DNA from: a virus
Reading direction: 5' to 3' (one strand)
DNA: 36,008 bases
Virus genome (UHGV): UHGV-0138922
Shown: in pieces, positions 1,658-27,170 of the stretch
Numbering within the stretch: position 1 is the first letter of the stretch
How the letters are laid out: every line of letters begins with the position of its first letter
The notes under the pieces: model-generated
What the model saw: only the letters and a program-made list of their open reading frames with translations
The model's database searches: none
What the model was told of the DNA's origin: nothing
Made by a program: the position numbers and the translations under genes

Positions 1658-1677
1658 ACGCGGTAGGGGCTTTTTTG
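1641..1677 (+). terminator. Rho-independent terminator
   Basis: GCCCCTA...TAGGGGC stem followed by TTTTTTGTTT. Confidence 0.6.
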
Positions 1678-1689
1678 TTTGGAAATGGT

Positions 1690-3441: not shown

Positions 3442-4617
3442 TTAGAGAGCCTCTAAGAGAGTATTAAAGTATTCATCCATTAAATCAGGACTGTCGTCAT
3501 CAATACAGAAAAATTCCGGTTTATTGATGCCGTAGAAGTGAGTATGTAGCTTGAATGTATCGTCATCAAATACATCTTTCGGGGATACCCACATATTAGC
3601 CTCGTCCGGTTGATTGGTTAGGTAGTCATAAACCAGTTGCTGTAAGTGTGGTAACTCATCAATAGTCAGAGTTTCCGACCATCCATCCTTGAAATCTTTG
3701 TAGGGTGCTGCATGAGTCTTGAAGCGTTGTTTTACTTCATGCTCTAAATCAACGGCTTTCCAACCATCCTCAAACTCATGAGTAAAGATTAATCTGTGAG
3801 TGAAGTTGCTCTTTCTGGTTTGCTCTCTCATTCGTTCTTCTGGTTTCCGGGTAGTGATTCCAAATTTAATAAATTTGTCATCTAATAATTGAATGTAGAA
3901 ACTAGCCTTACCCTGATAAGTCCGGTTAGACAGTTGCACCAGTTGGTCTTTAATGCAAAGCGGACAAGTGAAAGAATCAGCACATCTTAAATGAGATTCC
4001 CATTCGTGGTTATGTGTCTTGCAATAGGTTTTAAATTTAACATCCTTTAGGTGTGGGGTGTTTATGATGAATCCTTTGAAGGTGTAAGGCGTACTCTCGC
4101 AACGTGCATTGATGATTGTCTCTTTGTCCTTAATAACTTCATCAAAAGTCTTGCCACTTCTTACCCGTTGGGATTTTTCAGCCATACAGATTTTGCAATC
4201 AAAATCGAAATCATCTTTGAGTGCATGTAATAGAGATGGCGTCATGATTTGATTGTGTTCAGGGCACAAAACACGGGCTTTCGTTCTATTTCGCCCTTTC
4301 CATTCTCCTTGCCATCCGAGGAATTTCTTTCCCTTCTCATTACAACGAGATTCCATTTTCAACCATACAGCCTTTTCAGTCTGGAATAACTCACCCCCGT
4401 TAGTATCTTCCAGTTTGCGTAATTTGTAGTCCTTATATTCTTGTGTATCTAAATTGTAGATTCGAAAGTAAGTGTGATTACCCTTCCACGGTAGGATAAA
4501 TCCACCAAATACGAAAGCAGGTTCCAGTTTAGCGATGATTCGTTGTTGGTACTCTTCCGGCGATAAACCGCGAGTTTTCTTAACAAAAGGAATTTCGGCA
4601 GCGTAAGCAAGTTTCAT
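3442..4617 (-). CDS. Zn-ribbon + GIY-YIG (T5orf172-like) nuclease-domain protein, 391 aa
   Basis: GIY-YIG-like motifs SFYIQ...KFGITTR...E; several CxxC pairs; start moved to the internal ATG at 4617, which has an AGAGGAAA ribosome-binding site (track start 4728 lacks one). Confidence 0.6.
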   Translation of the reverse strand: MKLAYAAEIPFVKKTRGLSPEEYQQRIIAKLEPAFVFGGFILPWKGNHTYFRIYNLDTQEYKDYKLRKLEDTNGGELFQTEKAVWLKMESRCNEKGKKFLGWQGEWKGRNRTKARVLCPEHNQIMTPSLLHALKDDFDFDCKICMAEKSQRVRSGKTFDEVIKDKETIINARCESTPYTFKGFIINTPHLKDVKFKTYCKTHNHEWESHLRCADSFTCPLCIKDQLVQLSNRTYQGKASFYIQLLDDKFIKFGITTRKPEERMREQTRKSNFTHRLIFTHEFEDGWKAVDLEHEVKQRFKTHAAPYKDFKDGWSETLTIDELPHLQQLVYDYLTNQPDEANMWVSPKDVFDDDTFKLHTHFYGINKPEFFCIDDDSPDLMDEYFNTLLEAL

Positions 4618-4676
4618 AGTAGTTTCCTCTAAAATAATAAGCTCACTACTATTTATTAGAGAAAATTGTCTTACTA

Positions 4677-4704
4677 TTGCATTCTCTATCTGAATGTGTA
4701 TAAT
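4677..4704 (+). promoter_or_regulatory. Sigma70-like promoter (TTGCAT-N16-TATAAT)
   Basis: Hexamers read directly from sequence, about 65 nt upstream of gene 4772. Confidence 0.45.
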
Positions 4705-4771
4705 ACGCGACCCTAAATCCCAAACCAACCATATTGAGGTTATGCCTATAAGTTAAAAAAGTGAGGTCTAT

Positions 4772-5341
4772 ATGATTCCAGTAATGGCTAAAGATATTGT
4801 TTTTACTCCTAAATCCTCCCGTGCTGTAACTCCATCGGCATTAGAACAACGCATTCTGACTCACATCAAAGAGAAGGACTTACCGTTAGTCTTTCATGGC
4901 TTTCTGGGTGAGTTTAAAGGGCTTCATTCAAGAATTGCTCTTACATGTACCCGATGCGGCAATAGAGCCGACAAATCAGCTACCAACCTGCTTAATGAAG
5001 GTAAACGCTGTGCATGTCTCAAAAGTGATTACTTTCAATATAAAGCGGGTGTGCCTTATCTCTATGTAATGAAATCAGGGGATATTGGTAAATTTGGTGT
5101 TACAAAGTCAATCATCAAGCGACGCATTAATCTGGGTGTACGCAATCCCGGTCATAACTTTGATATTGTCTTTGCTGGTGAAATGCCATCAATGAAACAT
5201 GCTTTAGCCACTGAAAGAGCAATAAAGAGATTACTGGATGTGGGTATAGGCGGGATTGAATACGGCAAAACTGAAACATTCCACTACTGCAATAAATCAC
5301 TAAACAATATAAAGAATATTGCAAGTGTGGAGTGGAACTAA
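4772..5341 (+). CDS. Zn-ribbon + GIY-YIG nuclease-like protein (189 aa), paralog of 3442-4617
   Basis: CxxC...CxC then PYLYVMKSGDIGKFGVTKS...R...E (GIY-YIG spacing); collinear similarity to the 391-aa protein. Confidence 0.65.
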   Translation: MIPVMAKDIVFTPKSSRAVTPSALEQRILTHIKEKDLPLVFHGFLGEFKGLHSRIALTCTRCGNRADKSATNLLNEGKRCACLKSDYFQYKAGVPYLYVMKSGDIGKFGVTKSIIKRRINLGVRNPGHNFDIVFAGEMPSMKHALATERAIKRLLDVGIGGIEYGKTETFHYCNKSLNNIKNIASVEWN

Positions 5342-6831
5342 TGCAAGATATTAAAATTCATTTTCAAGATTACAGTTTCGTTAAGGTTGATTGCTCTCCT
5401 TCTATCGGAATGGAATTAAGAGATTATTTCTCGTTTGAGGTTGAAGGGGCTAGATTTAGCCCCCGTTACAAGTATTCCGGCTGGGATGGAAAGATAAGAC
5501 TGTTTACGCATGAAAATACCTTGCCAATCGGATTATTGAAAACATTAGGTATCTTCGCTAAAAACATGGGCTATAGCGTATGGGTAGACCCCAGATTGCT
5601 TGAGAAGGAAGATGTAACCAAAGAATCAATTGATTCATGGATTGACTCTTTAGAAGTGTATTCCGGTAGCAATAAAATCAATCCTTACTGGTATCAAAGG
5701 GAGGCAGTATTTCAGGGTATCCATAATCGCCGTAGAATGCTGGTTCTTCCTACCAGTGCCGGAAAGTCATTGATTGCTTGTATGCTGTCTCGTTGGTACT
5801 TAGAGAACTACACCGGAAAGATTCTAATCATTGTCCCGACTACATCGCTGGTGGTTCAAATGAGGGATGATTTTGTCGATTATAGGCTATTCCCTTATGA
5901 AGCAATCCATACAATGATGAGTGGTAGCGGGAAACATCCGGGAGACAGGTTAATCACTGTTTCAACCTGGCAATCAGCTTGCAAGATGCCTCCTGAATGG
6001 TTCCGACAATATGGAATGTTGATAGTTGATGAATCACATCGCGCTAGTGCAAAGAATATCACCAATATCATCAACGGAATGAATCACTGTCAATTCAAGA
6101 TTGGTATGACTGGTTCCCCGAAAGAATCAAAGTGCCATCTCATGCAGTATGTCGGGTTGTTCGGTGATATTCAGAAGATAGTAGCAATCAAGCAATTGAT
6201 GGATGACGGACAAGTTACCCAGCTTAAAATTAATGCTCTCTTCCTTAAGTACAAAGATGAAGAATGTAAAGCAATGCGGGGCAAAGATTATCAGGAAGAG
6301 ATTAAATTCATCAATGCTCATAAGGTAAGGAATAAACTGGCTTGTAATTTGGCCTTAAAACTCGCCAGGAAGCAAGAAAACGTATTTTTGATGTTCCGGT
6401 ACTCTAAGCATGGAAAAATGCTTTATAATGCATTACAGCGCGTTTACGATAAGGTTTATTACGTTTCCAGTGAGATTACCACCGCCGAACGCGATGCCTT
6501 AAAGAAAATGGCTGAAAATGAGAAAGGATTGATTGTAGTTGCTAGCTATGGTGTTTTCTCTACTGGCGTTTCAATTAAGAATCTTCATCATGTTATTTTT
6601 GGTCATCCGGTGAAAGAATCGACCATTGTCCGGCAATCAATAGGACGTGCTCTTAGGAAACATGGTAGTAAGGCAATTGCTGTTGTATGGGATTTGATAG
6701 ATGTGATTTGTTCGAAAGACAAGAAAGGAAAATATACACGCAAGAATTATGCTTTAACTCATGGCCTCCAGAGAATCAATACTTACATATCAGATCGCTT
6801 CGAATATGCCACGAAAACAATCGAGATTTAA
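5341..6831 (+). CDS. uvsW: T4 UvsW-like SF2 (DExH) DNA helicase
   Basis: Walker A LPTSAGKS, motif II LIVDESH, motif III MTGSP, motif VI IGRALRKHG; N-terminal region MQDIKIHFQDYSFVKVDC...WDGKIRLF resembles the UvsW N-terminus as I recall it; ATG overlaps the upstream stop (TAATG); track alternative start is GTG 5332. Confidence 0.82.
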   Translation: MQDIKIHFQDYSFVKVDCSPSIGMELRDYFSFEVEGARFSPRYKYSGWDGKIRLFTHENTLPIGLLKTLGIFAKNMGYSVWVDPRLLEKEDVTKESIDSWIDSLEVYSGSNKINPYWYQREAVFQGIHNRRRMLVLPTSAGKSLIACMLSRWYLENYTGKILIIVPTTSLVVQMRDDFVDYRLFPYEAIHTMMSGSGKHPGDRLITVSTWQSACKMPPEWFRQYGMLIVDESHRASAKNITNIINGMNHCQFKIGMTGSPKESKCHLMQYVGLFGDIQKIVAIKQLMDDGQVTQLKINALFLKYKDEECKAMRGKDYQEEIKFINAHKVRNKLACNLALKLARKQENVFLMFRYSKHGKMLYNALQRVYDKVYYVSSEITTAERDALKKMAENEKGLIVVASYGVFSTGVSIKNLHHVIFGHPVKESTIVRQSIGRALRKHGSKAIAVVWDLIDVICSKDKKGKYTRKNYALTHGLQRINTYISDRFEYATKTIEI

Positions 6832-6836
6832 TAAAT

Positions 6837-6854
6837 AGGGGCTTTAATGCCCCT
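6837..6854 (+). terminator. Hairpin (AGGGGC-tttaat-GCCCCT), weak terminator or attenuator
   Basis: Stem-loop immediately after the helicase stop, followed by a T-rich tract. Confidence 0.35.
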
Positions 6855-6876
6855 TTATTCTACGGAGATTAAAAAA

Positions 6877-7128
6877 ATGATTAGCTTTAAACGTTTTTTG
6901 GTTGAGGCCGCGATCGACGGTTTCATGAGTAAGATTTATTCTTGTAATACTATCGAGGGATTAAATGAACTTGAGGCATATTATGAGAAGCGCAAGAAAG
7001 AAACAGAATTGAAACCTGCTGATGATATTTCGATCCGTGATGCCATCGCCGGACGACGCAAGCAACTGGAAGCGGAGAACGAGCCGGAAGACGATTTTTC
7101 TATCATCAATTTGTGCCAGATAAAATAA
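6877..7128 (+). CDS. Small acidic protein (83 aa)
   Basis: GGAG about 10 nt upstream of ATG 6877 (track start 6847 lacks a ribosome-binding site); followed by a strong terminator. Confidence 0.5.
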   Translation: MISFKRFLVEAAIDGFMSKIYSCNTIEGLNELEAYYEKRKKETELKPADDISIRDAIAGRRKQLEAENEPEDDFSIINLCQIK

Positions 7129-17865: not shown

Positions 17866-17890
17866 AAAAGCCACCCCGAAGGATGGCTTA
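17866..17890 (-). terminator. Strand-specific rho-independent terminator (UUCG loop)
   Basis: Minus-strand RNA AGCCAUCC-UUCG-GGGUGGCU (one G.U wobble, a C.A mismatch on plus strand) followed by a U-run. Confidence 0.7.
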
Positions 17891-17894
17891 AAAA

Positions 17895-18017
17895 TTATTT
17901 GGTCTTGCGGCCTCGTTTTGCTGTGGCTTTCGCCGTAACTTCTTCTACTTCTGGAATCACTACAGCTTCATGTTCTGGTAGCGGTTCAGGTTCTGGTAAA
18001 TGAAGTTCTTCGTTAGT
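17895..18017 (-). CDS. Putative UGA-readthrough C-terminal extension of major tail protein (40 codons: TNEELHLPEPEPLPEHEAVVIPEVEEVTAKATAKRGRKTK)
   Basis: In frame with the upstream gene after UGA, no internal stop, UAA stop 4 nt before the terminator hairpin; similar in peptide and nucleotide blocks to the capsid extension. Confidence 0.5.
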   Translation of the reverse strand, partial: TNEELHLPEPEPLPEHEAVVIPEVEEVTAKATAKRGRKTK

Positions 18018-18494
18018 TCAACCGCCAGTGGTAAACACTTCCTGTTTCAGCGGAGCACCATCAACAGCAAAGGTAAACTCTTTAGTTACCACTTCTTCAT
18101 CGCCACCGTTCATAGCAACTTTAGAAATAAAGCCGTTGTAAGCGATACGAATACCAGTCTGTTTGCCAGCGTCCACATAATATTCTACTTTGATTTGGCA
18201 GCGAGTGCCGTCTTCGGCAGCTTTTGCGAGCTTCTCGTGTACCGCATCACCTGGGATATAGTTAACGGTCAGAGTCAGATCTTCAACGTTCAGTTTACCA
18301 ACCAGCTTACGGTTATACTGAGAAGAATAGCTCTTAACTTCTACCGTCCCGCGAGACAAAGAATATTCAGGAAAACCAGCGCACTCTTTAATTTCTTCGT
18401 ATGCTTCATCAGCAAGATCGGTATTAGTGGTATCAGCGTGATAGAACAGACTTACCAGACCACCAGTAAAAATATCTTTGAATTGTTGAGACAT
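18018..18494 (-). CDS. Major tail (tube) protein
   Basis: 158 aa, immediately upstream of the G/T chaperones and tape measure gene; paralogous to the N-terminal part of 21920-22753. Confidence 0.6.
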   Translation of the reverse strand: MSQQFKDIFTGGLVSLFYHADTTNTDLADEAYEEIKECAGFPEYSLSRGTVEVKSYSSQYNRKLVGKLNVEDLTLTVNYIPGDAVHEKLAKAAEDGTRCQIKVEYYVDAGKQTGIRIAYNGFISKVAMNGGDEEVVTKEFTFAVDGAPLKQEVFTTGG

Positions 18495-18567
18495 ATAATT
18501 ACCCCTTAATTGAATTTGTTATAACGGGGGAACTAGTCCCCCGACTTTTATTATTTAGTTGATGTTA

Positions 18568-21500
18568 TTATTCGTTTTCTACCCAGATTTCACGCGGAAC
18601 GAAGTTAGAATCTTGAATGTTCTTAAAGATTTTACCGCTAGAGTGAAGTTGGATTTTAATCCATCCACCGTTACCAGCCAGGTAATAGTTCCCGTCATTG
18701 GCAAAACGGATAAAATGGTTAAATCCTGCGGCGTCAAGAATCCACACATTACGGAAGCGGAGATCTTGTGGTAAACCTCCGGTCTGGGTATTACCAGGGA
18801 GAGTACCGGACCAGATTTTAGTACAACCTTTCGTCTTTTTGATATAACGACCGTCAAAGTTACCGTAATCAGTTGGTGTAACTCGACCAGTTACGTTTAC
18901 TGCTTTGTTTGCGGTGATTGCACCGGAAGTAAAACGCATTACTGCCACATTGTTAGCATATACATCTAAAATACCGTCGCCGTTTTGCTTAAAGCCAGTA
19001 TCACTATCACCCAAAACAATTGAGTTGCCACCTAATCCATTAGCAACGTTTACACCAAATGCGCTAATTTGCGGGGTAGTAACCTTACCAGAAACGTTCA
19101 AGTTTTGTGCGTTGATTTGTCCATTTACACTAAACTGAATCGCTGTAGTTCCTGGACCACCTGCACGCTGTGTATAGAAGTGCCAACCGCTTTCATCAGC
19201 CCACTCTAAAACCTGTTTACGATCAGCATTACCCCAAACACGACAGTTAAACGAGGATTGTGCTGTACCTTTACCCCATGTCAATTTACCACCAACTTCA
19301 AAGTCTCCTAAGAAGTTTGCTTTCAATCCACCAGTAGCCATATTACGCTCGGTGCTGAAATGACGTCCTTTGCTATCTTCCACATACAGGACGTTATCAC
19401 GACCGTTACTGCTATCACCCCAATGGTTAAAGCGAATAAAATCGCGGGATTGTCCAGCAAGTCCGGCTTCCATCGTTATATGCTGTCCAGTATTATATAA
19501 GTTACCGCCAGTATAAACATGTCCACCAAATCTAGCTGCTTTGCTTGCACCTTCTAAGGTCAATGCGGATTTATTGGAATCACCACCTAAATTAACGTTA
19601 CCGGAACTAAATTCATAAATGAATGGACGGTTTCCAGTCCAGCTACCCCATTTATCATTTTCGGCAGTAGACAGAAGATAGGTTTTAACACCATCATTTC
19701 GCCAGAATGCACCGTAATTACCGTAAATCATACGATATGCATCAGCGTTAGTTGAAATATATTGCCCGTTGGTATGGACAATTTTTGTTGCACCAACATT
19801 AAGAGAGATCTGACCGCTTTGTTCTAACGCAAAGTTGTTTTTACCAGCATCACTATAGATCTGGAATGCGTTAGTGTCGGCATTACCAAAACCAAACCAT
19901 GATTGACGAACGTTAGCACCGTTACGACGATCCCAATATTCAACAAGGTTACTATTCCCTGTCTGGCGTTCTAAACGAATATTACCACCATCAAGAACAG
20001 CACGACCAGTTTGCAGCGTGCGGTCGGTAATTTTAAGAACTTCGTTTGAGTCAGTAGTGCCAGTAGCTAGGCGGTACATGCTACCCTGAACAGTTTCATG
20101 CCAAATAGTATGACCTGATTTACTACGGAACTGACGAAGATATTTTTTACCATCACCAGTATCATTACACAAACTGATAATATCGTAAGTTCCCTGTGTA
20201 TTATCATCAAAACGAATAGTTCCGGCTTTGTTCTCTGTGTTAAACATGGTAATTACTTTACCATCAGTAACACCAGTGGACGGCTTAACGAGAGTTATTT
20301 CAGGAACGTCATGTACCGTCAGTGTAACATCGTTAGTTTTACCATATTCGACAATAACGTTATCAGTATAACGACCGTAGTTAACGTAGATATCGTAGTT
20401 ATCACCGGAAGTGTTAACCGCAAATACTTGATGAATATTTTTAGCATTTCGACGATAAGCCGCAATACTAACGCCTTTCGGGTTATTGTTACCGGAACGG
20501 ATAACAATTTCTACAAAATCAACCTGATCATAGGAGTTAACGTTATAGCCGTTACCACCGAAGATACGAAGCATTACCATTCGACCATTCTGTGGGATCG
20601 TGGCGGTTGCAATCTTGAAATAACCACGAGAAGCATCACCAGCAGGAACAGACATTTTAACGTTCTTAATGAACATCTGGTCTACTGCGGCCTTGCTATA
20701 CACACCCAATTCATCGGGAGTCGGCTTATCCCCTTCGTGATACATGCGGTAACTGAATCGCTTATTACCATCTTTATCAAAGCCATAGGTTTTAACCTGA
20801 GATGAGCTAGACCCATAATGGAACTCAAAACCGCGACCGTGAGCTTTACCGCCAGAATGAGGAATGTTCAGGATCAAGTTACCCCATCCTTCGGCATTAT
20901 TCGGACGAAACGCACCAAAATAATCAAGGTTACGTGCGCCAGCATCATCAAAGTAGTTAGCTGTTTTGGTTAACAGATACCCGTGATGATAGGTATTGGT
21001 ATTCTTCTTGATGTAAATTGCATCGTTGCTACCTTCAATACCATCAATTCGCTGGTTAGCTGCGGCAATCGCTGCATCGGTGGCAGATTTATTTTGGTCT
21101 ACCTTGTTGTTAATTGCGGTGTGGTTGCTATTAACAGTGCCAGTAAGGTTACTGATTTTAGTATCAGCGTCTTTCTTGTTATTTGCTACCGTGGTTTCAA
21201 TAGCCGATTTGTTGGACGCAACCGTGCTAGTTAAGCTAGAGATCTTGCTATCAGCATCAGACTTGTTAGCGGTAACAGTCTTAGTTAAGTTGCTAACGTT
21301 AGTGTTAGTGGTATCAACTCGGCTATTAATTGCGGTGTTATTGTCAGTAACCGTAGTGGTTAAAGCTGTGATTTTGTTGTCCGCATCTCGTTTGTTATTA
21401 GCTACGGTAGTTTCAATAGCTGATTTGTTTGCCGAAACTGTCCCCGTAAGGTTATTGATCTTGGTGTCAGCGTCGGTTTTATTTGCCGTGACTGTCTGGG

Positions 21501-21846
21501 TTAAGTTACTAACAGTGGTGTTAGTAGCATCAATGCGCTTATTGGTTGCGGTGTCTTTAGTGGTAATGGTGTTATTCAGTTCAGATTTAGCGGTAGCCAG
21601 AGCGTTAGCAGCTTCGGTTTTATTTGCCGCGATAGTAGAATCAGTAGTTTTCTTGTTATTGTCTACTTTTGTGTTTAAAGCATTATGACTTTCAGGAGAA
21701 ACACTTACTTGAACTACTGCGTTATTTTTATCTTTGGTATAAATTACATGGTCTGCCATCTGAATAGCGATTTCACCGACCTGTAATTGTTCCGGCGTTG
21801 GCTTTTTACCAGCCGTCTGTGTGCGTTTAAATTGGATTGATTGCAT
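18568..21846 (-). CDS. Tail fibre protein (1092 aa) with N-terminal Thr/Asn-rich repeat shaft
   Basis: N-terminal KPTPEQLQVGE-type motif, tandem ~66-aa repeats, Gly-rich C-terminal region; GTGAGGTG ribosome-binding site. Confidence 0.7.
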   Translation of the reverse strand: MQSIQFKRTQTAGKKPTPEQLQVGEIAIQMADHVIYTKDKNNAVVQVSVSPESHNALNTKVDNNKKTTDSTIAANKTEAANALATAKSELNNTITTKDTATNKRIDATNTTVSNLTQTVTANKTDADTKINNLTGTVSANKSAIETTVANNKRDADNKITALTTTVTDNNTAINSRVDTTNTNVSNLTKTVTANKSDADSKISSLTSTVASNKSAIETTVANNKKDADTKISNLTGTVNSNHTAINNKVDQNKSATDAAIAAANQRIDGIEGSNDAIYIKKNTNTYHHGYLLTKTANYFDDAGARNLDYFGAFRPNNAEGWGNLILNIPHSGGKAHGRGFEFHYGSSSSQVKTYGFDKDGNKRFSYRMYHEGDKPTPDELGVYSKAAVDQMFIKNVKMSVPAGDASRGYFKIATATIPQNGRMVMLRIFGGNGYNVNSYDQVDFVEIVIRSGNNNPKGVSIAAYRRNAKNIHQVFAVNTSGDNYDIYVNYGRYTDNVIVEYGKTNDVTLTVHDVPEITLVKPSTGVTDGKVITMFNTENKAGTIRFDDNTQGTYDIISLCNDTGDGKKYLRQFRSKSGHTIWHETVQGSMYRLATGTTDSNEVLKITDRTLQTGRAVLDGGNIRLERQTGNSNLVEYWDRRNGANVRQSWFGFGNADTNAFQIYSDAGKNNFALEQSGQISLNVGATKIVHTNGQYISTNADAYRMIYGNYGAFWRNDGVKTYLLSTAENDKWGSWTGNRPFIYEFSSGNVNLGGDSNKSALTLEGASKAARFGGHVYTGGNLYNTGQHITMEAGLAGQSRDFIRFNHWGDSSNGRDNVLYVEDSKGRHFSTERNMATGGLKANFLGDFEVGGKLTWGKGTAQSSFNCRVWGNADRKQVLEWADESGWHFYTQRAGGPGTTAIQFSVNGQINAQNLNVSGKVTTPQISAFGVNVANGLGGNSIVLGDSDTGFKQNGDGILDVYANNVAVMRFTSGAITANKAVNVTGRVTPTDYGNFDGRYIKKTKGCTKIWSGTLPGNTQTGGLPQDLRFRNVWILDAAGFNHFIRFANDGNYYLAGNGGWIKIQLHSSGKIFKNIQDSNFVPREIWVENE
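21140..21565 (-). repeat. Tandem coding repeats (~200 bp unit, ~2 copies, with ~22-codon sub-periodicity) inside the fibre gene
   Basis: Protein repeats VSNLTQTVTANKTDADTKINNLTGTVSANKSAIETTVANNKRDADNKITAL... / VSNLTKTVTANKSDADSKISSLTSTVASNKSAIETTVANNKKDADTKISNL... Confidence 0.7.
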
Positions 21847-21874
21847 CTAATCACCTCACATAAAACAGGAATAA

Positions 21875-21892
21875 GGGAGGCGTTAACCTCCC
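21875..21892 (-). promoter_or_regulatory. Intergenic hairpin (GGGAGG-cgttaa-CCTCCC) upstream of the fibre gene, possible attenuator
   Basis: Palindromic GC stem between the 277-aa gene stop and the fibre ribosome-binding site. Confidence 0.3.
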
Positions 21893-21919
21893 CGCGTCAT
21901 GTTTTATTTAGAGAAGTGA

Positions 21920-22753
21920 TCAGTATTCCCCGAAGTCGATTCTATCAGTCTTAGCAACCGCATTAATTTCGGCTGGCGTTGGCTTCTCATTTGTTGTATA
22001 GACTTTAATCCATTCCGATTTTCCGTTGTCCTGAATATTTCGTACCCGCAAACGTGGAGCACCGGAAGTATTACACGTTAATTGCCATGCGCCATGCTCA
22101 TTAGCTTGAAGATGAATTAACGATGTATCAGCACCATAAGGGTTAGTGCTAGCCGTTCCTTTGTAGGTTACGAAGCGGTTTCCTGTCAGAGATTCACTAT
22201 CAATAGGTCCGGTGAAAGGATTTACACCAGCGCCCAGACCAAAATCACCCTGACGCAAGATCCGGCCTTCGGTTGCAATACCCCTTGCAAGAATCCCGCC
22301 ATCTGGTTCTAGTTTGAATTCCATAGTTACAGCTTTGTTATCACCGCCACGAGTTTTATGGCTAGTGACATAAGCATCATAAATGACATAGTAACCAGTG
22401 TTAGCAGCACTATAGCCAGAGTTCACAACATAGAACATTCTAAAGCGCAAAGGTGTTTTATCCTCTACGGCTTTCATCAACATTGCTTGATGTTCGTCGT
22501 CAAGAACACGGTTTACTGTGAGCGTAGTCGGTTCAAGTTTGCGATAGCCAGCCAGCTTACCAGTCGCATCATGATCATACTCTTCGTAAGTCTCGATCTC
22601 GGTTGATTCTGTCAGCGTAGGAAAGGCTGCGATGTTCTCCATACCACTAAAGCTAGGATCGAAAAAGTCGACCTGATTGTCTAGCTGGTTAGAGATCGAC
22701 ACTTCAACATGCGACCCCGTAAAAATATCTAAGTTATCATGTGTAATATTCAT
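21920..22753 (-). CDS. Tail tube-like protein with extra C-terminal domain (277 aa), paralog of the major tail protein
   Basis: Shares DIFTG, LTLTVN and VDG/EPDG blocks with 18018-18494; C-terminal ~120 aa additional. Confidence 0.55.
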   Translation of the reverse strand: MNITHDNLDIFTGSHVEVSISNQLDNQVDFFDPSFSGMENIAAFPTLTESTEIETYEEYDHDATGKLAGYRKLEPTTLTVNRVLDDEHQAMLMKAVEDKTPLRFRMFYVVNSGYSAANTGYYVIYDAYVTSHKTRGGDNKAVTMEFKLEPDGGILARGIATEGRILRQGDFGLGAGVNPFTGPIDSESLTGNRFVTYKGTASTNPYGADTSLIHLQANEHGAWQLTCNTSGAPRLRVRNIQDNGKSEWIKVYTTNEKPTPAEINAVAKTDRIDFGEY

Positions 22754-22762
22754 TATTACCCC

Positions 22763-23185
22763 TTAAAAACGCGCTAGATAAGAAAATTTAAGACTAAGTG
22801 TCCCAACGATACCCCCATCACTAGAATCATCGTCATAATCGGTATTAGAAGCGACTGGAGTTATATCTGAAATGGAGAAGCCCAAATCTTTAAAACGTGG
22901 GTTATCTGGCTGAATCTGGATTATCTGGCAAATACCCTCATGAATTTTCGTTTCATGAATCTGAGAATATAATTGCATTTCGATAACGCATTCAGCTTGC
23001 ATTGCATTACCACCACGGACCCTAGTGTAAGTCTCATTCATTCCGGTAATCCAACACACCACGTCATCGCTAAAACCAGTTTGAGTTTGTTCTACGTTTA
23101 AAGCCAGACCTAGATCTTGTTCGATAATATCCTGTAAAGCACGTTTAATCTTAAGACGTGGCATATTATTAACGGTAGCGAGCAT
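22763..23185 (-). CDS. Head-tail joining / neck protein (putative)
   Basis: Position between capsid and tail genes; AGGGGGTG ribosome-binding site supports the internal ATG near 23185. Confidence 0.4.
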   Translation of the reverse strand: MLATVNNMPRLKIKRALQDIIEQDLGLALNVEQTQTGFSDDVVCWITGMNETYTRVRGGNAMQAECVIEMQLYSQIHETKIHEGICQIIQIQPDNPRFKDLGFSISDITPVASNTDYDDDSSDGGIVGTLSLKFSYLARF

Positions 23186-23459
23186 GAGCACCCCCTGCTA
23201 AAGTGATAAAGCAATCAGTGGTATTATCACCATTGCGCTTAATGTATTGAACTTTGAAACGCTGACTTTCTACAATGACAATATCACCTTGCTTTAAATC
23301 TCCCTCACGACAGAATAAGAATTCTGTTTCTGTCATTACCCCTTGTTCGTCGGTAGTAGTAATTTCATGGTAAGCACGAATTGATTTACCACCTTCCACC
23401 ACAAAAACAGGAGCACTCTTAAACATTCGATTTAATTGTGATTCTGATAATTTGAACAT
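23169..23459 (-). CDS. Head-tail adaptor / head completion protein (putative)
   Basis: First gene after the capsid terminator; GGGGGTG ribosome-binding site before the ATG. Confidence 0.4.
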   Translation of the reverse strand: MFKLSESQLNRMFKSAPVFVVEGGKSIRAYHEITTTDEQGVMTETEFLFCREGDLKQGDIVIVESQRFKVQYIKRNGDNTTDCFITLAGGAHARYR

Positions 23460-23495
23460 AGTCACCCCCTTTTATGGAGTATTTACATACAAAAA

Positions 23496-23517
23496 AGCCC
23501 CACCGTTAGGCAGGGCT
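23496..23517 (-). terminator. Strand-specific rho-independent terminator
   Basis: Minus-strand RNA AGCCCUGCC-UAAC-GGUGGGGCU with two G.U wobbles, followed by a U-run. Confidence 0.65.
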
Positions 23518-23609: not shown

Positions 23610-25613
23610 TCATTCAGCGCCAATCTGAAGAACTTTCAGAGCTTCCGGCTGAGTAACAACATAATCCAGATCTACCCAGATACGCGGAACGATAGCAGAC
23701 TGTGCACGGTAGGTAGTGTCGTCCATATCCAATTCCAGACCGCCCCACTCACCGATAGTGATGCCGGAGAAGTCACCCAGAACGATGTGATCTGCCGGAA
23801 TAACACCAGAAGTAACTACTTCGTAACCAGCCAGTTTGCCGTTTTCGATGATATAACCGGAAACGCCGTTATCTTTCAGGGTAGATTCCAGTTCGGCAGC
23901 AGTTGCACCGCTCATCGCAAACTTGATCGCCTGAGCAGGAACGCCAGCGTCGGTCAGTTTAGCAATTTCTTTCAGGAAATCTTTGTAAGAGAAAGCAGCT
24001 TTCTTCTCAACGCGGCTAGCGTCTACCAGTTGCTTAACCAGACCAGCCGGACCACGAGCATTTTCTTTGTCAGACAGAATCAGTTGTTCCAGTTTGATAC
24101 GAACAGCTTTGTTAATGTGGTCAGTGATCAGGGTAGCGATACCCGGAACGGTTTTCAGAGACTGACGGCTAATCGGGTTGCCACCAGCGAAAGTCTTAGG
24201 AGACAGTTTCACGTTCGCAAATTCAGCTTTGCTTTCCGGCGCAGCACCGTTTTCATCAACGAAGCCGAAAGCATCAACGCTGGATTTAGTCATTTTTGGA
24301 ATAGCAGTCGGAGAAGTCAAGCCACTATAAACAGTCACACCCAGACGACCCAGAACAGATTCCGGCATCAGCATTTCGATGTAGGATTCAGTCATCAGTT
24401 TTTCGTCGGTGATAGCAGTCAGATCGGCTTTGGTGTTACCAGCAGCAGCAGCACGCATAGCAGCAGCCGGAACGAATACAGAGCCACCACGAGCAGCACG
24501 ACCACGCTGCATAGTTGCAGTAGCAGCCATTGCAGAAAACTCGGCTTCGTTAGCACCCAGAGCTTCACCATCTACCAGAGAGCGAATTACGTTGTTCAGG
24601 TCAAAAGTTTTTTCCATTTTAGAGTCCTTAATTTGTTCGTTATTACGTTGAGCATTGGTAATGTTATTTAGTGCCTTAGTGCGGAATGCTTCCGGCGTCA
24701 TATCTTTAACTGCCAATGCGCGTTTTAATTCTTCGTCGTCAATATTTAGTTCGCGTGCAATTTCGCGAATTTCTAATTCGTCTTCTTCGGAACGTTCAGC
24801 CACTTCAATTTTTTCTTCTTCAACCGGAGCAGCTTCACGTTCTTCTGTCATTTCTTCTTCTTCCCGAACAGTTCCACGATCATCATCAGAACTTTCAGAA
24901 TGTTCAGCGTCTTTTCCGTCTTCGAGATTTTCATTTTCTTCATTCTCTTCAACTTGGCGCTCTTGAGTTTCTTCTACTTCCGGTTCTTTATTTTCTTCTA
25001 CCGGAGTTTCTTCAACCTGAGCGACTTCTTTTTCTTCGTCTTTAACTTGTTCGATTTGTTCTTTAGTCATATCGCGTTTAGCCTCCAAATTAACTGTGAT
25101 AGTATTTAGAGAGCGATTTAGACCGACAGAATCGTCTGCGGGCACAGACACCCATGAAATCTCATGAGGAATCCACTTAGTAACAATCAATTGTCCTTTA
25201 GCGTAATCGATGTGATATTCTTTAATGTCATAACCGACAGAAATTTTTTCCATCGTACCTTCAATGACTTTATTACGAATATCATTAGCCAAAGTACCAT
25301 GCTTAGAGAATTTAACAGTAGCACGGCCTACTTTATCCGCATCGATTCGAGCGTTACAGACAACACCAATGTGATTATCGAAATTATGATTGAACAGCAA
25401 CGGAGCGTTATTATTCAGGCGAGACAGATCAACCGCTTCCGGTGTATGTAACAGAATTTCATCTAATACCACCATCTCTTGATTTTGCTCATCCCAGAAT
25501 TGGCGCTGGTAAGGCTGTTCACTGGAGAAAGCAATTTCAAATTCGTATTGATCGTTATGCCCTTCGTTAATAACTCCACCGTAACCGTTAAGATCGCGGC
25601 GAAATTTAAGCAT
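23610..25613 (-). CDS. Prohead protease - acidic scaffold-like linker - HK97-fold major capsid protein (single 667-aa ORF)
   Basis: N-terminus resembles HK97-type prohead protease (LLFNHNFDNHIG, ISVGYD, HEISWVSVPAD); ~150-aa Glu-rich linker; C-terminal ~330 aa HK97-like capsid domain; AAGGTGA ribosome-binding site. Confidence 0.8.
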   Translation of the reverse strand: MLKFRRDLNGYGGVINEGHNDQYEFEIAFSSEQPYQRQFWDEQNQEMVVLDEILLHTPEAVDLSRLNNNAPLLFNHNFDNHIGVVCNARIDADKVGRATVKFSKHGTLANDIRNKVIEGTMEKISVGYDIKEYHIDYAKGQLIVTKWIPHEISWVSVPADDSVGLNRSLNTITVNLEAKRDMTKEQIEQVKDEEKEVAQVEETPVEENKEPEVEETQERQVEENEENENLEDGKDAEHSESSDDDRGTVREEEEMTEEREAAPVEEEKIEVAERSEEDELEIREIARELNIDDEELKRALAVKDMTPEAFRTKALNNITNAQRNNEQIKDSKMEKTFDLNNVIRSLVDGEALGANEAEFSAMAATATMQRGRAARGGSVFVPAAAMRAAAAGNTKADLTAITDEKLMTESYIEMLMPESVLGRLGVTVYSGLTSPTAIPKMTKSSVDAFGFVDENGAAPESKAEFANVKLSPKTFAGGNPISRQSLKTVPGIATLITDHINKAVRIKLEQLILSDKENARGPAGLVKQLVDASRVEKKAAFSYKDFLKEIAKLTDAGVPAQAIKFAMSGATAAELESTLKDNGVSGYIIENGKLAGYEVVTSGVIPADHIVLGDFSGITIGEWGGLELDMDDTTYRAQSAIVPRIWVDLDYVVTQPEALKVLQIGAE

Positions 25614-25655: not shown

Positions 25656-27170
25656 TTATTGGGGATCGGCTGGGGAATTTTTTTCTTCACCCTCGCCATT
25701 AACGATAATATTTAGTGCGCTCTTTTCGGCTTGAATCTCTGAGAATACTTTTTCAGGATCATCACCACGTTCAAGAATAACAGCAGTACGTGATTTAAGA
25801 CCATTTTGAATTAAAGCAATCTCGGCGTTTACGTCTTTAATAGGATCGACGGATTCAAAACGCGGACGAATAATAGTAGTGTTATCGATAATATGAGGAA
25901 TTGCAGTAATACGAATCGGAACAATACCACGCGCGGAATAATGGCGTAGATACGCTTCAAAAATTGGCAATACCACTGTTTCAATTAATTTGTTTTGCAG
26001 TGCTTTAATGCGGTTACGCTGAGTTAATTCACCAAAACGTGCGGCTGAGTAGTTGATCTGTGAACAATCTCCTGTTAAGCCCTGTTTGAACACGCCTAAG
26101 CCCATTGATACGCTAGTGAACATCGCATCATTGAAGCTGTTAAAGTCATCGCCATTTTGCGATGATTGAATGCTCTTGATTGTTGCCCCTTCCGGCAATT
26201 CCTGAATAGTACCCGGTGCAAAGTCCTGTACTACTTCCGGCGCTTGATATTGTTCATCCTCTTCACCAGTATCAAAATCGTCACCGGAATCTTTAGGACG
26301 TTCAATAAAGCCCATAGAACTAGCCGCAATACGTTTCTGGACGATCGCGGTTTCGCGGAACGCTTCTTGATGCGCAATATCCTTAATCACTGGCAGGAAG
26401 TCAGTCACACCACGTAAACTTTCCGCGCACAGTGGCTGGTAGTAGTGGCACACCTGAGAAGCATCTACGCGATAATTTTCGCCAGTGTAGGTCTGAGTCA
26501 GTAGATTGATTTTTCTAAACCAGTATGCTACAGGGCGCATTGTGTCTACGTCATACTCAATCCCCTGATAGATCGCACGTTCTTTGCTTATTTCACGACT
26601 AAGCGACCAGTCGCACCTATCAGCAGACAGAATAGAAACTTGTAACTCATTGTTCTCTTTGGTTAAAACGATGAAGCATTCTCCACCCTGAACACGTTCA
26701 GATTCTGCCATTGCCAGCATTTCACGGAAGTTAAAGCGACCGTTGCGAGAGAAGCGTTTAGCACTCTGCGCCCACTTCCAGAAAGCATTCTCGATCTGCT
26801 TATTCAGTGCGGTGTCAAGTTTGCCATTTGATTTAACGATTGATGGTTTCGGATCAAGCCCCGTACCAACAACTTGGTCAACGATATACTGCTTGTATCG
26901 CTTACCTACAGCATTGTTTATAGCCAGAGTACGACCCTGATCATAAAGGCGCTTACCGTTCGATTTGAGAGCCTTATTGAAGGTTCCTGTAATGGTGTCT
27001 TGTTGAAGCTGTCCATCAATGCGATCACCGACTAAGCCCAAAGAACGCTTAGACAAATCTTTCTGGAATTTTTCTACTTGTTTGTCGATAAAGATTTTTT
27101 GTTGTTGCTGGCGGTGATTAGTTTTAACTGGAGTTTCTACCGCCTTTTTGCGTCGAAAAAGATTAAACAT
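25656..27170 (-). CDS. Portal protein
   Basis: 504 aa, between terminase and capsid genes; AAGGGGT ribosome-binding site. Confidence 0.75.
   Translation of the reverse strand: MFNLFRRKKAVETPVKTNHRQQQQKIFIDKQVEKFQKDLSKRSLGLVGDRIDGQLQQDTITGTFNKALKSNGKRLYDQGRTLAINNAVGKRYKQYIVDQVVGTGLDPKPSIVKSNGKLDTALNKQIENAFWKWAQSAKRFSRNGRFNFREMLAMAESERVQGGECFIVLTKENNELQVSILSADRCDWSLSREISKERAIYQGIEYDVDTMRPVAYWFRKINLLTQTYTGENYRVDASQVCHYYQPLCAESLRGVTDFLPVIKDIAHQEAFRETAIVQKRIAASSMGFIERPKDSGDDFDTGEEDEQYQAPEVVQDFAPGTIQELPEGATIKSIQSSQNGDDFNSFNDAMFTSVSMGLGVFKQGLTGDCSQINYSAARFGELTQRNRIKALQNKLIETVVLPIFEAYLRHYSARGIVPIRITAIPHIIDNTTIIRPRFESVDPIKDVNAEIALIQNGLKSRTAVILERGDDPEKVFSEIQAEKSALNIIVNGEGEEKNSPADPQ

What the first reader, a model, noticed from the sequence alone, without database searches (positions are those of the whole stretch)
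17895..22753. Two tail-tube paralogs bracket a 1092-aa fibre gene
The 277-aa protein (21920-22753) and the 158-aa major tail protein (18018-18494) share collinear blocks (DIFTG, LTLTVN, KA-ED, VDG/EPDG). The longer one carries an extra ~120-aa C-terminal domain containing a KPTPAEINAV motif that echoes the KPTPEQLQ and DKPTPDELG motifs in the fibre. A large fibre gene between a tube paralog and the real tube gene is an atypical order for lambda-like tails. The 277-aa protein may be a tube-initiator or fibre-docking ring.
Basis: partly seen in the sequence, partly recalled or inferred. Interest (0 to 1): 0.5.

Follow-up and report, generated by a model that had tools for sequence, protein, structure and literature searches.

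The report
Tail-tube paralog that mounts side fibres
In this lambda-like E. coli prophage, a second copy of the tail-tube gene has been fused to the connector end of a phage-T4-type tail fibre, so it most likely forms a special ring in the tail onto which the neighbouring T4-like fibre plugs, a way of attaching side fibres that has not been described.

Summary
Residues 9-163 of the 277-aa protein align with the 158-aa tube protein at 31% identity (67.8 bits, E 7e-19; best of 300 shuffles 27.7 bits). The N-domain model matches lambda gpV.

The extra C-terminal domain is a pyocin-knob/T4 gp34-type fibre module. It ends in the same tail as T-even gp36 (IDFGEY* here, VIDFGTF* in RB49, QDFGYY* in T4). 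The N-terminus of the 1092-aa fibre is homologous to that of gp37, the part that gp36 binds in T4.

The cassette is therefore a tube domain fused to a gp36 C-terminus, followed by gp37, inserted between a gpU-like terminator and the true tube gene. All 47 related viral contigs show it as far as they extend, and so do phage record DCP80 and one bacterial-genome locus. Representatives of the paralog's relatives run from 342 to 1209 aa, with fibre sequence after the knob. Paralogs and tubes form two separate clades, so the duplication is ancient.

The best reading is a minor tube-like ring that is itself the proximal piece of a side fibre. Where the ring sits and how many fibres it carries are unresolved. 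Of the two KPTP echoes, DKPTPDELG is real and KPTPEQLQ is coincidental. No isolated, studied phage has this arrangement.

I also noticed a conserved in-frame 40-codon extension after the tube gene's TGA stop.

The parts
22763..23191 (-). Tail terminator (gpU-like), 142 aa. Its stop codon lies inside the ribosome-binding site of the paralog gene.
   Evidence: The AF2 model (pLDDT 80) matches lambda gpU (3fzb), T5 p142 (8bcu) and the neck/terminator chains of NF5, SaPI1 and E217. Junction sequence read.
22265..22753 (-). N-domain of the 277-aa protein (aa 1-163): paralog of the tail-tube protein with a lambda gpV-like fold.
   Evidence: BLASTP against the 158-aa tube gives 31% identity, E 7e-19, far above shuffles. 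PHROG 158, E 1.8e-9. The AF2 N-domain is confident, and the top Foldseek hits are the lambda gpV tube (8k36_A, E 2e-7) and the 80alpha, monocin and YDC107 tubes.
21920..22264 (-). C-domain of the 277-aa protein (aa 164-277 plus stop): one fibre 'knob' module ending in a gp36-type C-terminal tail (aa 255-277, window 21923-21991, ...EKPTPAEINAVAKTDRIDFGEY*).
   Evidence: The module profile hits R1/R2 pyocin fibre knobs (6cl6 E 2e-8, 6ct8), Mu fibre S, the F2-pyocin side fibre and T4 gp34. BLASTP against the RB49 gp36-like C-terminus gives 33% identity, E 3e-6, aligned end to end. T4 gp36 ends ...QDFGYY. D273 and G275 are invariant in the family.
21694..21846 (-). Fibre N-terminal domain (aa 1-51), gp37-N type: the presumed socket for the paralog's C-terminus.
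   Evidence: 39% identity, E 1e-14 against the RB49 gp37 N-terminus. It also aligns with the T4 gp37 N-terminus. It is kept at 38-100% identity in all related loci while the rest of the fibre varies.
18568..21846 (-). 1092-aa gp37-like side tail fibre. It contains a 71-aa tandem duplication in the shaft (aa 108-250, window 21097-21525) and a partial knob module at aa 339-387 (window 20686-20832).
   Evidence: Pfam Gp34_trimer E 8e-24 and PHROG 1699 E 1e-59. 75-80% nucleotide identity to RB49-group gene 37. Internal repeat at 73% identity. Knob match.
18018..18494 (-). 158-aa tail-tube protein, the likely major tube subunit (lambda V position).
   Evidence: PHROG 158 E 1e-20; Pfam TTP_11, TTP_12 and Phage_tail_2 below their cut-offs. 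It lies directly upstream of the chaperone, T-like and tape-measure genes and is followed by a strong terminator hairpin.
17895..18017 (-). In-frame 40-codon stretch after the tube gene's TGA stop, ending in TAA: a candidate read-through extension (TNEELHLPEPEPLPEHEAVVIPEVEEVTAKATAKRGRKTK).
   Evidence: TGA-ACT followed by an open frame is present in the window and in all 20 window-type tube loci (13 distinct sequences). Indels are 3, 6 and 15 nt only, and the other two frames are closed. A related tail is fused with no stop in L042.
17868..17889 (-). Intrinsic-terminator-like hairpin plus T-run after the tube gene and its extension.
   Evidence: 9-bp stem, 5 G-C pairs, followed by TTTTGTTT.
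14690..17814 (-). Context: tail assembly chaperone (17506-17814), T-like ORF (17126-17476) and tape measure protein (14690-17122).
   Evidence: Phage_TAC_13, Phage_tail_T and PHROG 344 hits; ORFs.
9183..14638 (-). Context: distal tail protein (14078-14638), hub N-domain protein (13425-14078), DUF6950 protein (12959-13534) and gpJ-like central fibre with the lambda J receptor-binding domain (9183-12959).
   Evidence: PHROG 1302 'distal tail protein' E 1e-16; Phage_phiJL001_Gp84_N; DUF6950; Ig_GpJ_C E 4e-34.

Best explanation
The 277-aa protein is a minor structural tail protein made of two parts. Its N-domain is an ancient duplicate of the phage's own tube protein. That domain most likely assembles as one tube-like ring built into the tail (inferred). 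Its C-domain is a fibre knob module that ends in the same tail as T-even gp36. That end binds the gp37-type N-terminal domain of the 1092-aa fibre encoded next to it, as trimeric gp36 binds the gp37 N-terminus in T4 (inferred from homology). The ring is therefore itself the proximal segment of the side fibres.

The phage also has a gpJ-type central fibre for its main receptor. The side fibres would give fast reversible adsorption, as in Ur-lambda and T5.

Shown here: the paralogy, the tube fold, the fibre-module and gp36-C homology, the gp37-N homology, the conserved synteny, the long fused forms and the ancient duplication.

Inferred: ring formation, copy number (six chains, hence probably two trimeric fibres per ring), the physical joint and the ring's position. 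My estimates for position are: tip-proximal above the distal tail protein about 55%, head-proximal below the terminator about 25%, other about 20%.
For: - Paralogy well above shuffles, and a gpV-like fold for the N-domain.
- The alignment has only 4 gap positions over 155 columns, so the whole tube fold is kept.
- The C-domain is a pyocin-knob/T4 gp34-type fibre module.
- The C-terminal tail matches gp36 of RB49 and T4 to the last residue. It is kept in 15 representatives that are at most 50% identical to each other.
- The fibre N-terminus matches the gp37 N-terminus.
- T4 gp36 binds the gp37 N-terminal region (PMC3004832).
- Genes 36 and 37 are adjacent in T4 and RB49, as the two genes are here.
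- All 47 IMG/VR loci, plus DCP80 and L052, keep the order terminator, paralog, fibre with conserved N-terminus, tube, chaperones, tape measure wherever the contig extends that far.
- Representatives of the paralog's relatives are 342-1209 aa, with fibre sequence added between the knob and the conserved tail. In L052 a 1209-aa paralog is followed by a distal fibre of only 490 aa. This fits a fibre anchor, not a protein present at about 180 copies.
- Paralog N-domains and tubes form separate clades with parallel branching in 13 genomes, so both have been retained since one old duplication.
- The 158-aa gene has the marks of the major tube protein: the V position, a better fit to the major-tail profile, slower divergence and a terminator hairpin.
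- Precedent for a tube-paralog ring that serves fibre attachment: T5 p140 (PMC10038345).
Against: - There is no direct evidence that the protein is in virions, forms a ring or touches the fibre.
- The C-domain model has low confidence (pLDDT below 50).
- Pfam finds nothing in the 277-aa protein, and PF03903 (gp36) matches only the long relatives.
- A hexameric ring and trimeric fibres need a 6-to-2x3 arrangement that has no direct precedent.
- Gene order (next to the terminator gene) and function (fibres should reach the cell near the tip) point to opposite ends of the tail.
- The gp36 C-terminus/gp37 N-terminus joint has no solved structure to compare with.
- The window lacks the gp38-like adhesin gene that close relatives carry, so this copy's fibre may not be fully functional.
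Confidence: 0.6

Rival explanations
1. Decorated tube subunit. The 277-aa protein co-polymerises with the 158-aa protein along the whole tail, or is the main tube protein. Its knob is a surface adhesin, like the Ig domain of lambda gpV, SPP1 gp17.1* or lactococcal MTP extensions, with no role in holding the fibre.
For: It keeps the full tube fold at 31% identity to the tube. Knob modules of this type bind LPS in pyocins (PMC13455828). Decorated tube proteins are common (PMC6669499; PMC5009743).
Against: Relatives carry 200-900 extra residues of fibre sequence after the knob, which is implausible at about 180 copies per tail. The invariant gp36-type tail and the adjacent gp37-N fibre argue for a joint. 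A separate canonical tube gene sits at the V position, and in distant relatives it has its own Ig-like decoration.
Confidence: 0.12
2. Neck collar. The same adaptor role as in the best explanation, but the ring is the last, head-proximal tube ring under the terminator. The fibres would then hang from the neck, like T4 whiskers or lactococcal neck passage structures.
For: The gene lies directly after the gpU-like terminator gene, and its ribosome-binding site overlaps that gene's stop codon. Lambda-type tail gene order usually follows position in the tail. Neck-borne fibres with host-binding modules exist in siphophages (PMC6669499).
Against: Solved cases of siphophage side-fibre attachment are at the tip (T5, Ur-lambda, monocin, F-pyocin). 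By my rough estimate, a fibre of about 1100 aa hung from the neck would not reach the end of a tail measured by an 810-aa tape. In L021 the terminator is only 47% identical to the window's while the paralog N-domain stays at 90%, so the two do not co-vary.
Confidence: 0.2
3. Non-virion helper. The 277-aa protein is an assembly factor that folds or trimerises the fibre, or helps tube initiation, and is not part of the finished particle.
For: Fibre genes are often flanked by chaperone genes, and this window has no other fibre chaperone.
Against: Neither half resembles a known chaperone. Both halves are homologous to structural virion parts: the tube, and gp36 and knob modules. The long forms are full fibres.
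Confidence: 0.05
4. Decaying duplicate. The second tube copy is a leftover of recombination with no function.
For: Tail-fibre regions are recombination hot spots. The fibre shares 75-80% DNA identity with T-even phages.
Against: The ORF is intact in every sufficiently complete locus across 33-100% identity and has many invariant residues. Clades are separate with parallel branching. Clusters hold hundreds of member sequences.
Confidence: 0.02

Closest known systems
Phage T5 p140 ring with p132 collar and pb1 L-shaped fibres (Linares et al. 2023, PMC10038345)
   Same: A duplicate of the tube protein forms a dedicated ring whose job is to carry side fibres on a siphophage that also has a central receptor-binding fibre.
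   Different: T5 p140 is undecorated, shares only 9% identity with its tube protein, and needs a separate Ig-like collar protein (p132, 12 copies) to hold three fibres. Its gene lies by the distal tail protein gene. Here the paralog carries the fibre-joining module itself, is 31% identical to the tube, has no collar gene beside it, and lies by the terminator gene.
T-even long tail fibre joint gp36-gp37 (T4, RB49)
   Same: The C-terminal tail (...DFG-x-aromatic) and last knob of the 277-aa protein match gp36. The fibre N-terminus matches gp37. The two genes are adjacent and in the same order. A gp38-type adhesin gene is present in relatives.
   Different: In T-evens the N-terminus of gp36 joins gp35 and gp34, which plug into a contractile-tail baseplate. 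Here the N-terminal part is a tail-tube domain, there are no gp34 or gp35 homologues, and so there is no knee. The tube gene lies between the gp37-like and gp38-like genes in relatives.
Ur-lambda Stf collar (PMC12617516)
   Same: A lambda-like tail with a gpJ central fibre plus gp37-related side fibres that speed adsorption.
   Different: [quoted passage not shown] No tube paralog is involved.
Decorated tube proteins and evolved distal tail proteins (lambda gpV Ig domain, SPP1 gp17.1*, lactococcal MTP extensions, evolved Dit)
   Same: A tube-fold domain followed by a C-terminal host-binding or fibre-type module.
   Different: Those are the major tube or Dit proteins themselves, sometimes extended by frameshifting. 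Here a separate, anciently duplicated gene carries the module and a fibre joint.
R-type pyocin, Mu and T4 gp34 fibre knob modules (6cl6, 6ct8, 8ju3, 4uxe)
   Same: The 277-aa C-domain belongs to this repeated module family (profile E 2e-8 to 4e-4).
   Different: In those proteins the module lies inside long trimeric fibres. Here a single copy follows a tube domain.

Membership tests
Lambda-type tail tube proteins (gpV N-domain fold; PHROG 158; Pfam Phage_TTP_11/12) | Tail-tube fold (beta-sandwich with one flanking helix and a long hairpin) | tested here: met
   The AF2 N-domain is confident over most of aa 15-168. Foldseek's top hit is lambda gpV 8k36_A (E 2e-7, probability 1.0), followed by many siphophage tubes.
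Lambda-type tail tube proteins (gpV N-domain fold; PHROG 158; Pfam Phage_TTP_11/12) | Significant match to a curated family profile | tested here: inconclusive
   PHROG 158 'major tail protein' E 1.8e-9, but no Pfam family at E up to 0.1. The 158-aa paralog itself reaches Pfam TTP_11 and TTP_12 only below their cut-offs.
Lambda-type tail tube proteins (gpV N-domain fold; PHROG 158; Pfam Phage_TTP_11/12) | Is the major, about 180-copy building block polymerised around the tape measure | not testable with these tools
   Indirect evidence is against it: the long fibre-fused relatives and a separate tube gene at the V position.
T4 gp36 (long tail fibre distal connector, PF03903) | C-terminal segment ending ...D-F-G-x-aromatic, homologous to the gp36 C-terminus | tested here: met
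   BLASTP against the RB49 gp36-like protein gives 33% identity over 73 columns, E 3e-6, ending at both C-termini. Alignment with T4 gp36 (...QDFGYY) shows D and G invariant.
T4 gp36 (long tail fibre distal connector, PF03903) | Encoded directly upstream of a fibre with a gp37-type N-terminal domain | tested here: met
   Fibre aa 1-51 against RB49 gp37: 39% identity, E 1e-14. Alignment with T4 gp37. Adjacency holds in all related loci that extend that far.
T4 gp36 (long tail fibre distal connector, PF03903) | Match to Pfam PF03903 above its cut-off | tested here: not met
   There is no Pfam hit in the 277-aa protein. The long relatives P0081 and P0084 do pass (28.8 and 32.0 bits; cut-off 26).
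T4 gp36 (long tail fibre distal connector, PF03903) | N-terminus joins the gp35 hinge and gp34 proximal half-fibre | tested here: not met
   The N-terminal 163 residues are a tube domain. In the scans of the tail proteins, the Pfam Gp34_trimer domain turned up only within the gp37-like fibre itself, and nothing else in the late operon resembled a fibre. No model specific for gp35 was searched.
T5-type fibre-docking ring (p140 + p132) | A tube-protein duplicate that forms one ring dedicated to fibre attachment | tested here: inconclusive
   The duplication is shown. Formation of a single ring and its position cannot be tested with these tools.
T5-type fibre-docking ring (p140 + p132) | Undecorated ring surrounded by a separate Ig-like collar protein that holds the fibres | tested here: not met
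   The paralog has its own C-terminal fibre module. No further ORF lies in the cassette between the terminator and tube genes apart from the fibre. No sequence relationship to T5 p140 or p132 was sought beyond the fold search.
Pyocin-knob / T4 gp34-type fibre module | Profile-level sequence homology to knob domains of solved fibres | tested here: met
   The profile of 33 module copies hits 6cl6 (E 1.8e-8), 8ju3 (1.7e-7), 25ve (8.5e-7), 6ct8 (1.4e-5) and 4uxe/5nxf (about 4e-4). The module recurs inside 500-1900-aa fibre proteins.

The most novel reading that the evidence does not exclude
This prophage family uses a mode of side-fibre attachment not among those listed so far (Dit-galectin, Stf Ig collar, T5 p140/p132, F-pyocin shaft). 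A dedicated ring of tube-protein paralogs is itself the covalent proximal segment of the fibres. Six chains resolve into trimeric fibres. A T-even gp36/gp37 joint lets distal half-fibres from lytic T4-like phages be swapped onto a temperate lambda-like tail. In the same operon, the true tube gene makes a second, extended product by read-through of a conserved UGA.
Probability: 0.45. Interest if true: 0.7.

Novelty: new variant of a known kind. Interest (0 to 1): 0.55.

Why it matters
How side fibres are fixed to non-contractile tails has been solved for only a few phages, and each used a different device. A tube paralog fused to a gp36-type connector would add a compact, genetically simple solution. 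It would also show how a module from lytic T-even phages (75-80% DNA identity in gene 37) is plugged into a temperate lambda-like tail.

The family is present in about 1% of complete E. coli genomes (55 of 5426). It also occurs in Shigella, Salmonella, Providencia, Edwardsiella and Proteus. No isolated phage with it has been studied.

The joint is a natural, portable adaptor, which could help host-range engineering of siphophages and tailocins.

The hexamer-to-trimer problem it poses is directly testable by cryo-EM of an inducible lysogen.

Tried and rejected
- Plain BLASTP of the 277-aa C-domain against the fibre gave only chance-level scores. A narrow family profile was blocked by HMMER's bias filter. 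Only a profile broadened with module copies from other fibres showed the match at fibre aa 339-387.
- A profile of the whole 277-aa family against PDB sequences found nothing.
- The AF2 model of the C-domain was too poor for fold search, so I relied on sequence profiles instead.
- The fibre N-terminus has no relative among solved structures, so the gp36/gp37 joint cannot be checked against coordinates.
- Two broader alignments were too diverse for the genome-contig scan. The scan with the close-family alignment found no relative among one-genome-per-species records, so I did not map the taxonomic spread beyond the protein-search names.
- tblastn of three diverse paralogs against 50,697 phage records found only DCP80. 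No characterised isolate or virion proteome could therefore be used.
- Literature searches for a tube-domain/fibre fusion or a read-through tube protein found no description.
- I looked at whether variants of neighbouring genes co-vary with the paralog to place the ring. The paralog tolerates a 47%-identical terminator and a 56%-identical tube, so this was uninformative.
- Tandem Repeats Finder did not detect the shaft duplication at DNA level. Protein comparison did.
- I considered a pseudogene or recent duplicate and rejected it on conservation and tree shape.

Full report
**What is there**

The window is a prophage of about 36 kb with its late genes on the minus strand. In transcription order the genes are:

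- gpA-type large terminase, a 164-aa ORF and the portal (25656-27170)
- a protease-capsid fusion (23610-25613)
- a 98-aa protein with a sub-threshold match to the Pfam head-tail attachment family Phage_attach (23169-23465)
- a 142-aa protein (22763-23191)
- the 277-aa protein (21920-22753)
- the 1092-aa fibre (18568-21846)
- the 158-aa tube protein (18018-18494)
- a tail assembly chaperone, a T-like ORF and the tape measure protein (14690-17814)
- the distal tail protein, a hub N-domain protein, a DUF6950 protein and a 1258-aa gpJ-like tip carrying the lambda J C-terminal receptor-binding domain

These assignments rest. A serine recombinase lies at 1675-3369.

The closest complete-genome relative is an E. 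coli prophage integrated in hicB, at 88.6% identity over the region. Matches occur in 55 of 5426 complete E. coli genomes.

**Check of the observation**

- **Paralogy.** The two proteins are real paralogs. BLASTP gives 31% identity over 155 columns with four gap positions, 67.8 bits, E 7e-19. In 300 shuffles of the short protein the best score reached 27.7 bits, with a mean of 14.3.
- **Family.** Both proteins match PHROG 158 'major tail protein' over the same profile positions.
- **Fold.** An AlphaFold model of the 277-aa protein is confident for residues 15-168. Its best match in the PDB is the lambda gpV tube (8k36_A, E 2e-7), followed by the 80alpha, monocin, YDC107, NF5 and Sf11 tubes.
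- **Fibre.** It is a gp37-type long fibre (Pfam Gp34_trimer E 8e-24, PHROG 1699 E 1e-59). It shares 75-80% nucleotide identity with gene 37 of RB49-group T-even phages.

**The extra C-terminal domain**

A full HMMER search with residues 160-277 found 88 cluster representatives.

About 18 of them share the window protein's architecture, with a tube domain followed by this module at about residues 160-280. Fifteen of these were read through to their ends. They are 342 to 1209 aa long and include P0080 (556 aa), P0094 (689 aa), P0084 (1204 aa) and P0081 (1209 aa). The extra length is fibre sequence. The two longest pass the Pfam cut-off for Phage_T4_gp36.

The remaining hits are internal, often repeated, modules of tail fibre proteins of 500-1900 aa.

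A profile of 33 module copies matches several solved fibres:

- R1 and R2 pyocin fibres (6cl6 at E 1.8e-8; 6ct8)
- the Mu fibre protein S (8ju3)
- the F2-pyocin side fibre (25ve)
- T4 gp34 (4uxe, 5nxf)

So the domain is a 'knob' module of trimeric fibres.

The same profile matches the window's own fibre at residues 339-387, the part that ends in DKPTPDELG. The score is 15.0 bits against a maximum of 7.1 in 500 shuffles. That echo is therefore real. The other echo, KPTPEQLQ at fibre residues 14-21, is not. It sits in a different, gp37-type N-terminal domain that has a conserved proline, and the profile does not match it.

**The key link**

All 15 of those representatives, which are at most 50% identical to each other, end in [ILV]-D-[FLA]-G-x-[FYLE] at the very C-terminus, whatever their length. 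The gp36-like protein of RB49 ends ...NKPTPADVGAVPLNAVIDFGTF*. T4 gp36 ends ...VIKDSVQDFGYY*.

BLASTP aligns the last 71 residues of the 277-aa protein with the last 71 residues of RB49 gp36 at 33% identity, E 3e-6. Both alignments run to the final residue.

The first 51 residues of the window's fibre are 39% identical (E 1e-14) to the N-terminus of RB49 gp37, and they align with the T4 gp37 N-terminus.

In T4, trimeric gp36 binds the N-terminal region of gp37 to begin the distal half-fibre (PMC3004832). Genes 36 and 37 are adjacent in T4 and RB49.

The cassette is therefore a tube domain fused to a gp36 C-terminus, followed by a gp37-type fibre.

**Context**

- **Terminator.** The 142-aa protein just upstream is a tail terminator. 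Its model (pLDDT 80) matches lambda gpU, T5 p142 and the neck/terminator chains of several phages. The cassette thus sits between the U and V positions of a lambda-type tail operon.
- **Ribosome-binding sites.** The paralog's ribosome-binding site overlaps the terminator gene's stop codon. It is nearly identical to the site ahead of the tube gene, TAAGGGGTAAT[A/T]ATG.
- **Synteny.** In 47 related IMG/VR loci the order, as far as each contig extends, is terminator, paralog of 277-485 aa, fibre, 0-1 kb of extra genes, tube of about 156-252 aa, chaperones and tape measure. The fibre's N-terminal 60 residues stay 38-100% identical while the rest of the fibre varies. The same order holds in phage record DCP80 and in locus L052.
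- **L052.** A 1209-aa paralog is followed by a distal fibre of only 490 aa. The joint therefore moves along a fibre of roughly constant total length.
- **Tree.** A neighbour-joining tree of 13 genome pairs puts all paralog N-domains in one clade and all tubes in another, with parallel branching. Paralogs diverge somewhat faster (median 37% against 46% identity). There was one old duplication, and both copies have been kept.
- **Distant relatives.** Their tube protein has its own C-terminal Ig-like domain. This marks it as the decorated major tube protein.

**How it most likely works**

The 158-aa protein is the major tube subunit. The 277-aa protein most likely forms one tube-like ring. Its C-terminal knobs gather into trimers and hold the gp37-like fibres through a gp36/gp37-type joint. 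The fibres supplement the gpJ central fibre, as Stf does in Ur-lambda (PMC12617516) and pb1 does in T5.

The homologies, the synteny and the long fused forms are shown. Ring formation, copy number, the physical joint and the ring's position are inferred.

Position is open:

- Gene order and the coupling to the terminator gene suggest the head-proximal end.
- Function and the solved cases suggest the tip. Those cases are T5, Ur-lambda, monocin and F-pyocin (PMC10038345, PMC12617516, PMC13455828).

**Comparison with what is known**

The nearest system is the T5 p140 ring, also a tube duplicate dedicated to fibre attachment. However, p140 is bare and needs the p132 collar, and the T5 authors call p140 and p132 a landmark of T5-like phages only.

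A recent summary lists four ways of attaching side fibres to siphophage-type tails, and none of them is a tube-fold protein fused to a fibre connector.

tblastn of three diverse paralogs against 50,697 phage records found only DCP80. That record is filed as a T4-like phage and carries this module at its left end.

Every source name returned for the family was 'hypothetical protein' or 'phage tail protein'. Literature searches found no description. I rate this a new variant of a known kind.

**Seen in passing: a possible read-through extension of the tube gene**

- **Extension.** The tube gene's TGA stop is followed by 40 in-frame codons ending in TAA, and then by a strong terminator hairpin.
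- **Conservation.** The window and all 20 loci with the window-type tube (13 distinct sequences in all) have TGA-ACT and an open frame.
- **Frames.** The only indels are 3, 6 and 15 nt, and the other two frames are closed.
- **Other tube variants.** Variants at 56% and 42% identity end in TAA and have no extension.
- **L042.** Its tube carries a related tail (...NVIPEAVAAKEK) with no intervening stop.

This looks like programmed UGA read-through that gives a minor extended tube protein. It would parallel the frameshift-derived second products of major tail genes in Listeria phages (PMC5009743). It is untested.

**Verdict**

Interest is moderate to good. Confidence in the adaptor-ring model is 0.6.

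Noticed in passing
window 17895-18020 (minus strand): The tube gene's TGA stop is followed by a conserved in-frame 40-codon stretch (a Pro/Glu-rich linker and a basic tail, ...AKATAKRGRKTK) ending in TAA. TGA-ACT and an open frame are present in the window and all 20 window-type loci. Indels are only 3, 6 and 15 nt. A related tail is fused without a stop in L042. This is a candidate programmed UGA read-through product of the major tail gene.
   Followed up: partly
window 17815-17894, compared with L002 18856-19362: Close relatives carry a 168-aa 'receptor recognizing protein Gp38' gene between the tube gene and the chaperone gene, so the order is gp37-like, tube, gp38-like. The window lacks it cleanly, although its fibre is 88% identical to the relative's over the full length. 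This copy's fibre may have no adhesin.
   Followed up: partly
window 19583-20928: The fibre gene shares 75-80% nucleotide identity with gene 37 of RB49-group T-even phages (80.0% over 764 nt, window 20029-20792). This points to relatively recent exchange between lytic myophages and this temperate siphophage.
   Followed up: partly
window 21097-21525 (fibre aa 108-250): The fibre's N-terminal shaft contains a tandem duplication of a 71-aa unit (73% identity, E 1e-31). Tandem Repeats Finder did not see it at DNA level. The region also shows a marked AT and GC skew.
   Followed up: yes
window 3442-7128: There is a cargo block next to the serine recombinase that is absent from the relative L002. 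It holds two proteins with CapR homology domains (one also with MUG113), a UvsW-N/DEAD-box helicase with weak PADLOC PbeA hits, and a 93-aa ORF. It may be a defence or accessory island.
   Followed up: partly
window 22753-22770 and 18494-18512: The two paralogs have nearly identical ribosome-binding contexts (TAAGGGGTAAT[A/T]ATG). G+C-rich hairpins follow the capsid, paralog, fibre and tube genes, at about 23496-23517, 21874-21893, 18525-18543 and 17868-17889.
   Followed up: no
L001 (PQ671644.1, Escherichia phage DCP80) 1-22000: This 140,978-bp record is filed as a T4-like Gaprivervirus. Its left end carries a siphophage module of this family: terminase, portal, capsid, a 699-aa tube-fibre paralog, a 745-aa fibre, a 164-aa tube and a tape measure protein. 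The record may be a chimeric assembly.
   Followed up: no
L026 12420-13365: In relatives with the 56%-identity tube variant, three tandem paralogous genes of about 100 aa (motif W..FDIPNGW) lie between the fibre (which has a C-terminal S74-like chaperone region) and the tube gene. Their function is unknown.
   Followed up: no
window 17126-17814: The T-like ORF (17126-17476) is in the -1 frame relative to the chaperone ORF (17506-17814), as expected for a lambda G/GT-type frameshift. I did not look for the slippery site.
   Followed up: no
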